Source: the human T2T-CHM13v2.0 reference genome, Homo sapiens. Taken from it: 64,000 nt of DNA. Of the stretch, positions 36,665-39,600 are shown piece after piece. The translations under genes and the position numbers were made by a program. The stretch is taken from assembly GCF_009914755.1 (NCBI RefSeq), contig NC_060933.1. One strand, 5' to 3'. How positions within the stretch are numbered: position 1 is the first letter of the stretch; each line of letters opens with the position of its first letter. The notes beneath the pieces were generated by a model, which worked only from the letters and a program-made list of their open reading frames with translations, was not told the DNA's origin and did not search any database.

Positions 36665-39600
36665 TTTTTTATTATTTTATTATTATTATACTTTAAGTTA
36701 CAGGGTACATGTGCACAACGTGCAGGTTTGTTGCATATGTATACATGTGCCATGTTGGTGTGCTGCACCCATTAACTCATCATTTAGCATTAGGTATATC
36801 TCCTAATGCTATCCCTCCCCCCTCCCCCCACCCCGTGACAGTCCCCGTTGTGTAGTGTTCCCCTTCCTGTGTCCATGTGTTCTCATTGTTCAGTTCCCAC
36901 CTATGAGTGAGAACATGCGGTGTTTGGTTTTTTGTCCTTGCGATAGTTTGCTGAGAATGATGGTTTCCAGCTTCATCCATGTCCCTACAAAGGACATGAA
37001 CTCATCATTTTTTATGGCTGCATAGTATTCCATGGTGTATATGTGCCACATTTTCTTAATCCAGTCTATCATTGATTGACATTTGGGTTGGTTCCAAGTC
37101 TTGCTATTGTGAATAGTGCTGCAATAAACATACGTGTGCATGTGTCTTTATAGCAGCATGATTTATAATCCTTTGGGTATATACCCAGTAATGGGATGGC
37201 TGGGTCAAATGGTATTTCTAGTTCTAGATCCCTGAGGAATGGCCACACTGACTTCCACAATGGTTGAACTAGTTTACAGTCCCACCAACAGTGTAAAAGT
37301 GTTCCTATTTCTCCACATCCTCTCCAGCACCTGTTGTTTCCTGACTTTTTAATGATCGTCATTCTAACTGGGGTGAGATGGTATCTCATTGTGGTTTTTG
37401 ATTTGCACTTGATTGCCAGTGGTGATGAGCATTTTTTCGTGTGTTTTTTGGCTGCATAAATGTCTTCTTTAGAGAAGTGTCTGTTCATATCCTTTGCTCA
37501 CTTTTTGATGGGATTGTTGTTTTTTCTCTTGTAAATTTGTTTGAGTTCATTGTAGATTCTGGATATTAGCCCTTTGTCAGATGAGTAGGTTGCAAAAATT
37601 TCCTTCCATTCTGTAGGTTGCCTGTTCACTCTGATGGTAGTTTCTTTTGCTCTGTAGAAGCTCTTTAGTTTAATTAGATCCCATTTGTCAATTTTGGCTT
37701 TTGTTGTCATTGTTTTTGGTGTTTTAGACATGAAGTCCTTGCCCATGACTGTGTCCTGAATGGTATTGCCTAGGTTTTCTTCTAGGGTTTTTATGGTTTT
37801 AGGTCTAACATTTAAGTCTTTAATCCATCTTGAATTAATTTTTGTATAAGGTGTAAGGAAGGGATCCAGTTTCAGCTTTCTACTTATGGCTAGCCAGTTT
37901 TCCCAGCACCATTTATTAAATAGGGAATCCTTTCCCCATTGCTTATTTTTGTCAGGTTTCTCAAAGATCAGATAGTTGTAGATATGTGGCATTATTTCTG
38001 AGGGCTCTGTTCTGTTGTTCTATATCTCTGTTTTGGTACCAGTACCATGCTGTTTTGGTTACTGTAGCCTTGTAGTATAGTTTGAAGTCAGGTAGTGTGA
38101 TGCCTCCAGCTTTGTTCTTTTGGCTTAGGATTGACTTGGCAATGCGGGCTCTTTTTTGGTTCCATATGAACTTTAAAGTAGTTTTTTCCAATTCTGTGAA
38201 GAAAGTCATTGGTAGCTTGATGGGGATGGCATTGAATCTATAAATTACCTTGGGAAGTATGGCCATTTTCATGATACTGATTCTTCCTACCCATGAGCAT
38301 GGAATGTTCTTTCGTTTGTTTGTATCCTCTTTTATTTCCTTGAGCAGTGGTTTGTAGTTCTCCTTGAAGAGGTCCTTCACATCCCTTGTAAGTTGGATTC
38401 CTAGGTATTTTATCCTCTTTGAAGCAATTGTGAATGGGAGTTCACTCATGATTTGGAGCTCTGTTTGTCTGTTATTGGTGTATAAGAATGCTTGTGATTT
38501 TTGCACATTGATTTTGTATCAAATCAAGATACAAAATCTTGATTTTGTATCAAATCAAGATACAAAATCTTGATTTTGTATCAAATCAAGATACAAAATC
38601 TTGATTTTGTATCAAATCAAGATACAAAATCTTGATTTTGTATCAAATCAAGATACAAAATCTTGATTTTGAGACTTTGCTGAAGTTGCTTATCAGCTTA
38701 AGGAGATTTTGGGCTGAGACGATGGGGTTTTCTAGATACACAATCATGTCATCTGCAAACAGGGACAATTTGACTTCCTCTTTTCCTAATTGAATGCCCT
38801 TTATTTCCTTCTCCTGCCTGATTGCCCTGGCCAGAACTTCCAACACTATGTTGAATAGGAGTGGTGAGAGAGGGCATCCTGTCTTGTGCCAGTTTTCAAA
38901 GGGAATGCTTCCAGTTTTTGTCCATTCAGTATGATATTGGCTGTGGGTTTGTCATAGATAGCTCTTATTATTTTGAGATAGGTGCCATCAATACCTAATT
39001 TGTTGAGAGTTTTTAGCATGAAGTGTCTTTGAATTTTGTCAAAGGCCTTTTCTGCATCTATTGAGATAATCATGAGGTTTTTGTCATTGGTTCTGTTTAT
39101 ATGCTGGATTACGTTTATTGATTTTCGTATGTTGAATAAGCCTTGCGTCCCAGGGCTGAAGCCCACTTGATCATGGTGGATAAGCTTTTTGATGTGTTGC
39201 TGTATTCAGTTTGCCAGTATTTTATTGAGGATTTTTGCATCAATGTTCATCAAGGATATTGGTCTAAAATTCTCTTTTTTGGTTGTGTCTCTGCCCGGCT
39301 TTGGTATCAGGATGATGCTGGCCTCATAAAATGAGTTAGGGAGGATTCCCTCTTTTTCTGTTGATTGGAATAGTTTCAGAAGGAATGGTACCAGTTCCTC
39401 CTTGTACCTCTGGTAGAATTGGGCTGTGAATCCATCTGGTCCTGGACTTTTTTTGGTTGGTAAGCTATTACTTATTGCCTCAATTTCAGAGCCTGTTATT
39501 GGTCTATTCAGAGATTCAACTTCTTCCTGGTTTAGTCTTGGGAGGATGTATGTGTTGAGGAATTTATCCATTTCTTCTAGATTTTCTAGTTTCTTTGCGT

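What the first reader, a model, noticed from the sequence alone, without database searches (positions are those of the whole stretch)
38508..38670. De novo self-folding minisatellite built from L1 ORF2 sequence by repeated snap-back synthesis
Seen: the normal antisense L1 text ...cacattgattttgtatcCtgagactttg... is split after gtatc (38520) by ~149 bp. This gives five identical 31-bp units plus 8 nt. Each unit is made of local sequence and its reverse complement and offers three competing fold-backs: GATTTTGTATC-7nt-GATACAAAATC (11-bp stem), GATACAAAATC-tt-GATTTTGTATC (11-bp stem across units) and AAATCAAGAT-5nt-ATCTTGATTT (10-bp stem). 22 of 31 positions are self-complementary, so any unit can pair with any other, giving a long bubbled cruciform. 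The units have zero mismatches while the host L1 is visibly diverged and frameshifted. Inference: an inversion/template-switch event seeded the unit and it has amplified recently. It may be an unstable AT-rich palindromic VNTR in intron 1 of a neural gene inside a segmental duplication.
Basis: partly seen in the sequence, partly recalled or inferred. Interest (0 to 1): 0.8.

Follow-up and report, generated by a model that had tools for sequence, protein, structure and literature searches.

The report
Hairpin-forming 31-bp minisatellite inside L1
A perfect 31-base tandem repeat sits in a decayed L1 element in intron 1 of a CNTNAP3 pseudogene; its building block formed once from scrambled local sequence before the region was duplicated and now has 1, 5 and 11 copies in the three copies of the region, a tidy but ordinary case of minisatellite birth.

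Summary
Window 38508-38671 holds 5.3 perfect copies of a 31-bp, 77% AT unit (TRF score 328) that interrupts the reverse-transcriptase part of an antisense, decayed L1. The unit is built only from one 13-nt L1 stretch and its reverse complement, and it folds strongly as single-stranded DNA (z = -10).

The "de novo / repeated snap-back" reading is only partly right. In the same genome the exact unit occurs at just three loci, all paralogs of this CNTNAP3 intron-1 segment, with 1.3, 5.3 and 11.3 copies and identical junctions. The paralogs differ by 0.98% and 2.0%. So the unit was made once, before both duplications, and whole units were added or lost later.

The single-unit paralog shows the pre-expansion state: 22 nt flanked by a 9-nt direct repeat and spanned by an 11-bp hairpin. 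Each array ends in that 9-nt partial unit. This matches the classic model of minisatellite birth by slippage at short flanking repeats, here helped by a hairpin.

It resembles AT-rich hairpin minisatellites such as FRA16B but is far shorter, and it is not a PATRR. Raw reads, human population variation and ape orthologs could not be checked. Interest is modest.

The parts
38508..38671 (+). Minisatellite array: 5 perfect 31-bp units plus a 9-nt terminal partial unit. 22.6% GC.
38508..38520 (+). Forward L1 13-mer (TTGATTTTGTATC). It is the resident L1 text, the first piece of every unit, and the only source of all other pieces.
38521..38527 (+). Piece 2 of the unit (AAATCAA), the reverse complement of positions 6..0 of the 13-mer.
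38528..38538 (+). Piece 3 of the unit (GATACAAAATC), the reverse complement of positions 12..2 of the 13-mer. It forms the 11-bp hairpin stem with 38510-38520.
   Evidence: (I19)
38521..38545 (+). The 25-nt templated insert that defines the seed. In the genome it occurs only at the three paralogous loci, at up to 2 mismatches.
38663..38671 (+). Terminal partial unit (TTGATTTTG), the 9-nt direct repeat that flanks the unit. Its last two bases (TG, 38670-38671) overlap the resumed L1 text TGAGAC.
   Evidence: The junction 23-mer is unique to this paralog family.
38643..39205 (-). Reverse-transcriptase fragments of L1 ORF2 (RVT_1 model positions 31-121 and 107-181 of 205). The array cuts the domain near model position 181.
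39774..40688 (-). L1 ORF2 endonuclease fragment.
40921..41322 (-). L1 ORF1 fragment (Transposase_22 and Tnp_22_dsRBD).
36660..42148 (-). Approximate extent of the host L1, antisense to the gene, with broken frames.
   Evidence: Dispersed-repeat matches start at about window 36660; masked stretches in the hub annotation.
29566..29749 (+). CNTNAP3P2 exon 1 (context). The array lies 8.8 kb downstream, in intron 1.
   Evidence: Hub annotation. The exon-1 region has 4 paralogs.

Best explanation
This is a transposon-derived, AT-rich, hairpin-forming minisatellite that was born in two stages.

Stage 1 (inferred). A single complex repair or replication error occurred inside an old antisense L1, in intron 1 of the ancestral CNTNAP3 locus. 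It replaced one base with 25 nt copied in three short pieces (7, 11 and 7-9 nt) from the adjacent 13-nt L1 stretch: two pieces in reverse complement and one direct. The result is a miniature forward-inverted-forward 'inverted triplication' (13/18/9 nt). This created a 9-nt direct repeat spaced 31 nt apart, and an 11-bp hairpin that spans exactly the DNA between the two repeat copies.

Stage 2. It is shown that copy number changed; the mechanism is inferred. After the segment was duplicated twice, whole 31-bp units were gained or lost independently, giving 1.3, 5.3 and 11.3 copies. The most likely mechanism is slipped-strand mispairing at the direct repeat, with the looped-out nascent strand stabilised by the unit hairpin. 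One, two and three units fold at -8.4, -18.1 and -26.1 kcal/mol.

The array has no evident function. It is a structural by-product in an intron.
For: One origin, older than the duplications:
- The exact 31-mer occurs 17 times in the 3.1-Gb assembly, all at three chr9 loci (1, 11 and 5 copies). There are no extra sites at up to 3 mismatches and 0 control matches.
- The flanks show that exactly these three loci are the paralogs carrying this L1.
- The left and right junctions are the same in all three.
- Over a shared 9.8 kb, substitution divergence is 96/9778 = 0.98% (window vs 43.67 Mb) and 2.01% (each vs 39.29 Mb). Private sites number 46, 46 and 146, giving the tree ((window, 43.67), 39.29).
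- Differences private to the 39.29 Mb copy are not depleted next to the array: 5 of 437 sites against 146 of 9778 overall. This argues against recent transfer by gene conversion.

Local templated origin of the seed:
- The 25-nt insert is tiled exactly by 3 pieces of a natural unrearranged L1, using both strands.
- The control using forward plus reversed-not-complemented templates needs 7 pieces, and 0 of 20,000 shuffles need 3 or fewer.
- There is no outside donor. The insert (up to 2 mismatches) and the right-junction 23-mer (up to 1 mismatch) occur nowhere else, while the normal text has 11,348 copies.

Slippage substrate:
- The single-unit paralog has 22 nt flanked by the 9-nt repeat, with one mismatch.
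- Both arrays end in that 9-nt partial unit.
- These are the two features named for the Taylor-Breden and Haber-Louis birth models, as described in PMC3389668 (passages).

Folding:
- z = -10.25 for the 5-unit array and -15.39 for the 11-unit array, against -2.38 for one unit in its flanks.
- Integer numbers of units fold into one hairpin on both strands.

Literature (passages read):
- Inverted triplications carry both a direct and an inverted repeat and are slippage substrates (PMC13334657).
- FRA16B constructs gain or lose whole 33-bp units and stall polymerase (PMC2875025).
Against: - No outgroup was available. Whether 1.3 copies is ancestral or a contraction is not polarised, and the age of the seed rests on shared junctions rather than on an empty orthologous site.
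- Slippage, unequal sister exchange and gene conversion cannot be told apart from three perfect arrays.
- Array purity is uninformative (joint P about 0.09).
- The seed pieces (7-11 nt) are shorter than the 12-13 nt below which Loytynoja and Goldman say chance matches are common. The case rests on the joint tiling test.
- The seed does not fit one simple event. It needs two separate inverted pieces. By hand I could not derive a snap-back path with 2 nt or more of priming at every junction.
- Raw reads were not inspected, and only one human genome was available.
Confidence: 0.7

Rival explanations
1. Same seed, but the array lengths changed by recombination rather than by replication slippage. 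This would be unequal sister-chromatid or allelic exchange, or meiotic gene conversion within the array.
For: [quoted passage not shown] The locus lies in a recombination-prone segmental duplication with four paralogs of the exon-1 region.
Against: Nothing here excludes it. The 9-nt flanking repeat, the terminal partial unit and the unit-length hairpins fit slippage naturally. With 31-bp units and at most 350 bp of array, the homology available for exchange is short.
Confidence: 0.2
2. One reading: each unit was laid down by a fresh round of snap-back (fold-back) synthesis, so the array is the direct product of iterated template switching.
For: The unit consists of local sequence and its reverse complement. 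Pol theta can oscillate between cis snap-back and trans copying within a single product (PMC4912351, passages).
Against: All 5 units here and all 11 at 43.67 Mb are identical, including the three internal junctions. A complete single unit exists on its own at 39.29 Mb. Iterated snap-back would give alternating orientations with variable junctions, not a strict 31-bp head-to-tail period.
Confidence: 0.03
3. The seed arose in one paralog after the duplications and was spread to the others by interlocus gene conversion.
For: Segmental duplications undergo gene conversion (general knowledge, recalled). No outgroup was available to date the seed directly.
Against: The 39.29 Mb copy carries private differences 36 bp to the left, 4 bp to the right, and one inside the partial unit. 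Private-site density near the array is 1.14% against 1.49% overall, so there is no clear depletion. Any conversion would have to be old or a very short tract.
Confidence: 0.07
4. An assembly artefact: the array length, or the array itself, is a mis-assembly of an AT-rich hairpin-forming stretch in a duplicated region.
For: Raw reads could not be inspected. Paralogous duplications are hard to assemble.
Against: The same structure appears at three separate loci with distinct flanking substitutions and three different lengths. At 164-350 bp the arrays are far shorter than a long read.
Confidence: 0.02

Closest known systems
Minisatellite birth at short flanking or noncontiguous direct repeats (Haber and Louis 1998; Taylor and Breden 2000), known to me here only as described in PMC3389668 (passages)
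   Same: The pre-expansion state has a 22-nt segment flanked by a 9-nt direct repeat. The arrays end in an incomplete terminal unit equal to that repeat. The array is derived from a transposable element.
   Different: The direct repeat did not pre-exist in the L1. The same templated rearrangement that made the repeat also made the hairpin. At 22.6% GC, the array falls below the 40% GC cut-off of that survey, so it would not have been counted there.
FRA16B 33-bp AT-rich minisatellite (PMC2875025, passages). FRA10B is recalled only.
   Same: Unit of about 30 bp, AT-rich, with predicted hairpins. Normal alleles of 7-12 copies are in the same range as 5-11 here. Whole-unit gains and losses occur on replication.
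   Different: No sequence relationship was claimed or tested. There is no known expansion to hundreds or thousands of copies and no cytogenetic fragility. Here the unit is a quasi-palindrome of mixed sequence, not an AT-dinucleotide-like tract.
Templated insertions of polymerase-theta end joining / SD-MMEJ (PMC4912351, passages; PMC5728401 and PMC2943611, search listing only)
   Same: The insert is made of short tracts (7-11 nt; the median reported insertion is 7 bp) copied from adjacent sequence in both direct and reverse-complement orientation. There is a small deletion and a 2-nt microhomology at one junction.
   Different: There are no non-templated bases. I could not trace a priming path with microhomology at every switch. 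The enzyme involved cannot be inferred from a scar.
Short template-switch mutations, four-point model (PMC5453318, passages)
   Same: It creates new inverted repeats and hairpins from local sequence in one replication error.
   Different: A single four-point event copies one contiguous reverse-complement fragment. This insert needs two inverted pieces plus one direct piece, so it requires either serial switches or two events.
Small inverted triplications (PMC13334657, passages) and the larger DUP-TRP/INV-DUP class cited there
   Same: Forward-inverted-forward architecture. The combined direct and inverted repeats form hairpins and invite polymerase slippage.
   Different: It is ten times smaller (13/18/9 nt against about 148/160/148 bp). 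The inverted part is itself permuted. Here slippage has amplified the DUP+INV unit, rather than only deleting it.
Palindromic AT-rich repeats (PATRRs) of recurrent translocations (recalled, no call)
   Same: AT-rich and self-complementary, with cruciform or hairpin potential.
   Different: PATRRs are near-perfect palindromes several hundred bp long. Here the longest arms are 78 nt at 73% complementarity, and the best near-perfect arms are 24 nt at 92%.

Membership tests
Minisatellite (tandem repeat, unit 10-100 bp) | Head-to-tail copies of a 10-100 bp unit, at least 2 copies | tested here: met
   31 bp x 5.3 copies, 100% identity
VNTR in the strict sense | Copy number varies among alleles in a population | not testable with these tools
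   Only one human assembly is held. Copy number does vary among paralogs: 1, 5, 11.
Minisatellite birth by slippage at short flanking direct repeats | A pre-expansion state with a 5-10 bp direct repeat flanking the future unit | tested here: met
   The 39.29 Mb paralog has a 9-nt repeat (one mismatch) flanking 22 nt.
Minisatellite birth by slippage at short flanking direct repeats | The terminal unit of the array is incomplete and equals the short repeat | tested here: met
   Both arrays end in TTGATTTTG. The feature is as described in PMC3389668.
AT-rich fragile-site minisatellites (FRA16B type) | AT-rich unit of about 30-40 bp that folds into hairpins | tested here: met
   77% AT; z = -10.25; one unit folds at -8.4 kcal/mol, z = -5.55
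AT-rich fragile-site minisatellites (FRA16B type) | Expansion to hundreds or thousands of copies with a cytogenetic fragile site | tested here: not met
   The largest array in this genome has 11 copies. Fragility is not testable.
PATRR | Near-perfect palindrome several hundred bp long | tested here: not met
   The longest arms are 78 nt at 73% complementarity. The definition is recalled.
Templated insertion (Pol theta / SD-MMEJ type scar) | The insert is explained by nearby sequence in direct and/or reverse-complement orientation, beyond chance | tested here: met
   3 tiles against 7 in the control; 0 of 20,000 shuffles need 3 or fewer
Templated insertion (Pol theta / SD-MMEJ type scar) | Microhomology at the junctions | tested here: inconclusive
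   There is a 2-nt TG overlap at the right junction. No clear microhomology at the internal switches (hand analysis).
Single four-point template switch | One contiguous reverse-complement fragment replaces the 1-to-4 fragment | tested here: not met
   Two separate inverted pieces are required.
Small inverted triplication | DUP / inverted / DUP order | tested here: met
   Forward 13 / inverted 18 / forward 9 nt
Small inverted triplication | Size of about 148/160/148 bp with a spacer of about 30 bp | tested here: not met
   The pieces are 13/18/9 nt. Sizes are from PMC13334657.
Known RNA family | Rfam match at the gathering score | tested here: not met
   52 matches at E up to 1, all far below gathering. 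The best scores 32.8 bits against 51.5.

The most novel reading that the evidence does not exclude
The three paralogs preserve a natural stage series (normal L1 text, then a 1.3-unit seed, then 5.3, then 11.3 units) for a route of minisatellite birth that is not among the two standard initiation models. In this route, one templated-insertion scar (a miniature inverted triplication) creates both the flanking direct repeat and the hairpin that loops out exactly one unit, so the scar is self-priming for expansion. All three copy numbers are odd (1, 5, 11). That would fit growth in two-unit (62-bp) quanta set by the 22-bp two-unit hairpin (-18 kcal/mol), though the chance of this pattern is about 1 in 4. 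If general, the route could explain part of the 94% of transposon-derived tandem repeats whose initiation PMC3389668 could not explain. The arrays may also still be polymorphic, unstable AT-rich hairpin sites within the rearrangement-prone chr9 pericentromeric duplications.
Probability: 0.2. Interest if true: 0.55.

Novelty: new member of a known kind. Interest (0 to 1): 0.3.

Why it matters
How minisatellites start is much less well understood than how they grow. Here a single genome holds the unrearranged text (over 11,000 L1 copies), the one-unit seed, and two expanded arrays with dated splits (about 1% and 2% divergence). The locus is therefore a compact, checkable example of birth and growth. 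It gives concrete predictions for ape orthologs and human pangenome assemblies. For CNTNAP3 biology it is probably neutral. For people who genotype this duplicated region it is a paralog-specific length marker, and a hairpin-forming stretch that may trouble polymerases and aligners.

Tried and rejected
- Rfam at a permissive threshold gave 52 sub-threshold generic-hairpin matches and no family.
- A single four-point template switch was rejected because two separate inverted pieces are needed.
- I tried by hand to derive a one-event Pol-theta path: trans copying primed by the TG/CA overlap, then snap-back. The first piece and the right junction fit. I found no priming of 2 nt or more for the 11-nt inverted piece, so the exact path is left open.
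- A two-event path is equally parsimonious and cannot be distinguished. It would be a 7-nt direct templated insertion, followed by an 18-nt inverted copy of the sequence that straddles the insertion point.
- PATRR membership was rejected.
- An outside donor for the insert was rejected.
- Recent gene-conversion spread is not supported.
- Array purity as a clock was rejected as uninformative.

Literature:
- The unit, the 24-nt palindrome and the 25-nt insert as text strings gave 0 papers.
- CNTNAP3 plus VNTR gave 2 papers holding both terms, 1 listed. Its passages concern an AluY eQTL near CNTNAP3B, not this array.
- The CNTNAP3B / segmental duplication search listed 10 of 131 papers. None of those listed contains the gene name, and nothing from it was used.
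- VNTR catalogues in supplements or databases were not searchable, so the array may be listed there without being named in text.
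Full report
WHAT IS THERE

Window 38508-38671 reads as five identical 31-bp units (TTGATTTTGTATC AAATCAA GATACAAAATC) followed by TTGATTTTG. Tandem Repeats Finder gives period 31, 5.3 copies, 100% matches, no indels and score 328. 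A 29-nt core occurs 5 times in the window, against 0.00 expected; 0 of 100 shuffles reach 5. The unit is 22.6% GC. It matches its own reverse complement at 22 of 31 positions, at two rotations.

- 11-nt arms with a 7-nt spacer, and 11-nt arms with a 2-nt spacer (I19 and I24).
- A 10-bp stem with a 5-nt loop, seen in the folded structure.

HOST ELEMENT

The array lies in an antisense L1. Pfam on unaltered minus-strand translations finds:
- L1 ORF1 domains at 40921-41322.
- The endonuclease at 39774-40688.
- RVT_1 at 38846-39205 and 38643-38951. The second piece ends at the array's right edge, near model position 181 of 205.

So the array interrupts the end of the reverse-transcriptase domain.

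The element is decayed. Of 42 stop-to-stop frames of 50 aa or more in 36600-42200, 18 are on the minus strand and the longest is 304 aa. An intact ORF2 is about 1,275 aa (recalled). The L1 is 93.5-97.6% identical to three natural L1 copies taken from chromosome 1.

It has none in the window, even at up to 3 mismatches.

Compared with natural copies, the locus has lost one base (C) and gained n x 31 - 6 nt, with a TG overlap at the right junction. By the hub annotation the site is in intron 1 of the transcribed pseudogene CNTNAP3P2, 8.8 kb downstream of exon 1.

THE SAME UNIT IN PARALOGS

The assembly containing the window could be searched.
- The exact 31-mer occurs 17 times, all on contig 9: once at 39.29 Mb, eleven times in tandem at 43.67 Mb, and five times in the window. 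The reversed-pattern control gives 0 matches.
- Allowing 3 mismatches adds nothing.
- The low-copy left flank (2,851 nt) matches full-length at exactly these three places (100, 99 and 98% identity). It matches partially at 41.32 Mb (query 1-1833). The other 37 of 41 listed matches cover only the last roughly 190 nt, which is the L1 end.
- The right flank (2,801 nt) matches at the same three places only.
- The exon-1 region has four paralogs. The fourth loses homology at window 35832, before the L1.

I believe the 39.29 Mb copy is CNTNAP3 itself and the 43.67 Mb copy is another CNTNAP3 paralog. That naming is from memory and was not checked.

Reading the other two loci:
- The 43.67 Mb copy has 11 perfect units plus the same 9-nt tail and the same two junctions.
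- The 39.29 Mb copy has one unit plus the 9-nt tail with a single mismatch (TTGAATTTG). That is 22 nt flanked by a 9-nt direct repeat.

DATING BY PARALOG DIVERGENCE

A three-way alignment over a shared 9.8 kb (window 34200-43982) gives:
- 96 mismatches in 9,778 sites (0.98%) between the window and 43.67 Mb.
- 2.01% between each of these and 39.29 Mb.
- 46, 46 and 146 private sites. The tree is therefore ((window, 43.67), 39.29) and is clock-like.

All three copies share both junctions and all internal junctions of the unit. The simplest reading is that the unit was formed once, before the first duplication.

Differences private to 39.29 Mb lie 36 bp left of the array, 4 bp right of it, and inside the partial unit. 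Their density within about 200 bp of the array is 5 of 437, against 146 of 9,778 overall. So there is no sign of a recent conversion tract that could have carried the seed between paralogs.

Human-chimpanzee divergence is about 1.2% (recalled). On that scale the younger split is of the order of the human-chimpanzee split and the older about twice that. Duplicated DNA mutates and converts faster, so this is an order-of-magnitude estimate only.

At least two length changes are needed to explain 1, 5 and 11 copies. At least one of them happened after the 0.98% split.

The absence of substitutions within the arrays is weak evidence of recency. At the lineage rate of 46/9,778, the expected number of substitutions is 0.77 in 164 bp and 1.65 in 350 bp. 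The joint probability of none is 0.089.

HOW THE UNIT WAS MADE (INFERENCE)

The single-unit form was compared with a natural unrearranged L1, numbering the 13-mer 0..12. It decomposes exactly into:
- forward up to position 12,
- reverse complement of 6..0 (7 nt),
- reverse complement of 12..2 (11 nt),
- forward 0..8 (9 nt),
- forward from position 14, sharing TG.

All inserted sequence therefore comes from one 13-nt stretch next to the break.

The 25-nt insert needs 3 tiles when the local L1 (73 nt) and its reverse complement serve as templates. It needs 7 with forward plus reversed-not-complemented templates. Of 20,000 shuffled inserts, none needs 3 or fewer, and only 4 need 4.

No other place in the genome carries the insert at up to 2 mismatches, or the right-junction 23-mer at up to 1 mismatch. 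An outside donor is therefore excluded, and the event happened once among more than 11,000 L1 copies with this text.

The architecture is forward-inverted-forward, a miniature of the inverted triplications described in PMC13334657 (passages).

Known processes make scars like this:
- Polymerase theta alternates cis snap-back and trans copying within a single product, with a median insertion of 7 bp (PMC4912351, passages).
- Replication template switching creates new hairpins (PMC5453318, passages).

A single four-point switch does not suffice, because two inverted pieces are needed. Either serial switching in one event or two successive events fits equally well. I could not resolve which.

HOW THE ARRAY GREW

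It is shown that copy number changed. The mechanism is inferred.

Every unit in both arrays has identical internal junctions, and a complete unit exists alone. So the array is not the product of repeated fresh snap-back. It is whole-unit, in-register tandem amplification.

The single-unit paralog displays the substrate required by the classical birth models: a short direct repeat flanking the future unit. Both arrays display the predicted incomplete terminal unit (models as described in PMC3389668, passages; I did not read the original papers).

The seed also supplies a hairpin that spans the DNA between the two repeat copies. As single-stranded DNA:
- One unit folds at -8.4 kcal/mol (z = -5.55).
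- Two units fold at -18.1 kcal/mol (z = -7.14).
- Three units fold at -26.1 kcal/mol (z = -9.37).

Values are nearly identical on the other strand.

For the whole loci:
- The 5-unit locus folds at -49.1 kcal/mol against -19.9 +/- 2.85 for shuffles (z = -10.25; 0 of 200 as good).
- The 11-unit locus folds at -104 kcal/mol (z = -15.39; 0 of 100 as good).
- The single-unit locus in its flanks is only marginal (z = -2.38; 6 of 200 as good).

A looped-out nascent strand of any whole number of units is thus stabilised. This is the standard hairpin-assisted slippage picture, and it matches the whole-unit gains and losses and the polymerase stalling shown for the 33-bp FRA16B repeat (PMC2875025, passages).

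Recombination-based length change is not excluded.

The mismatch in the 39.29 Mb tail reduces its direct repeat from 9 nt to 4 + 4 nt. This may help keep that copy at one unit (inference).

COMPARISON WITH KNOWN KINDS

The array is a minisatellite by definition.
- It meets both tested features of the flanking-repeat birth models.
- It shares unit size, AT-richness and hairpin formation with FRA16B-type repeats. It lacks their large expansions, with a maximum of 11 copies here.
- It is not a PATRR. The longest arms are 78 nt at 73% complementarity, and the best near-perfect arms are 24 nt at 92%.
- No Rfam family is matched. There are 52 hits at E up to 1, all far below gathering.

TE-derived minisatellites are common: 23% of minisatellites and satellites in PMC3389668. 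That survey excluded arrays under 40% GC, so this one would not have been in it.

Text searches for the unit, the palindrome and the insert found 0 papers. The one listed paper holding both CNTNAP3 and VNTR concerns an AluY near CNTNAP3B. The array may still be listed in VNTR catalogues that I could not search.

VERDICT

The local, both-strand origin, the strong folding and the variable copy number all hold. 'De novo' and 'repeated snap-back' do not.

The array is a new, apparently undescribed member of a known kind: a TE-derived, AT-rich, hairpin-forming minisatellite born at a short direct repeat. Its appeal is that the seed and two grown arrays are preserved side by side in dated paralogs.

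Still open are raw-read support, present-day polymorphism, ape orthologs, cruciform extrusion in duplex DNA, and slippage versus recombination.

Noticed in passing
window 35832 (fourth paralog: L011, G000:C9:41320000-41329999): A fourth paralog at 41.3 Mb shares the exon-1 region and the intron up to window 35832 at 98% identity. Homology then stops abruptly and Alu-like repeats follow. This looks like a duplication breakpoint about 830 bp before the L1.
   Followed up: partly
window 29300-30000: The exon-1 / promoter region is only 95-96% identical to its three paralogs, whereas the intron a few kb downstream is 98-99% identical. This may reflect faster decay of a CpG-rich region or small indels. 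It was not examined.
   Followed up: no
window 40064-40068: There are five consecutive differences: TGTTA in the window and the 43.67 Mb copy, against CTCAG in the 39.29 Mb copy. This is a multinucleotide replacement inside the L1 endonuclease region and is not a simple inversion.
   Followed up: no
window 41277: A 196-bp stretch is present only in the 39.29 Mb paralog. It is either a deletion in the common ancestor of the window and the 43.67 Mb copies or an insertion in 39.29 Mb. It lies in the L1 ORF1 / 5' part.
   Followed up: no
window 38005: The 39.29 Mb paralog has one extra TCTGT next to TCTGTTCTGTT. This is a small tandem-copy difference 500 bp from the array.
   Followed up: no
window 41931-41967: A small 17-bp x 2.2 tandem repeat (85% matches) lies in the 5' part of the same L1.
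   Followed up: no
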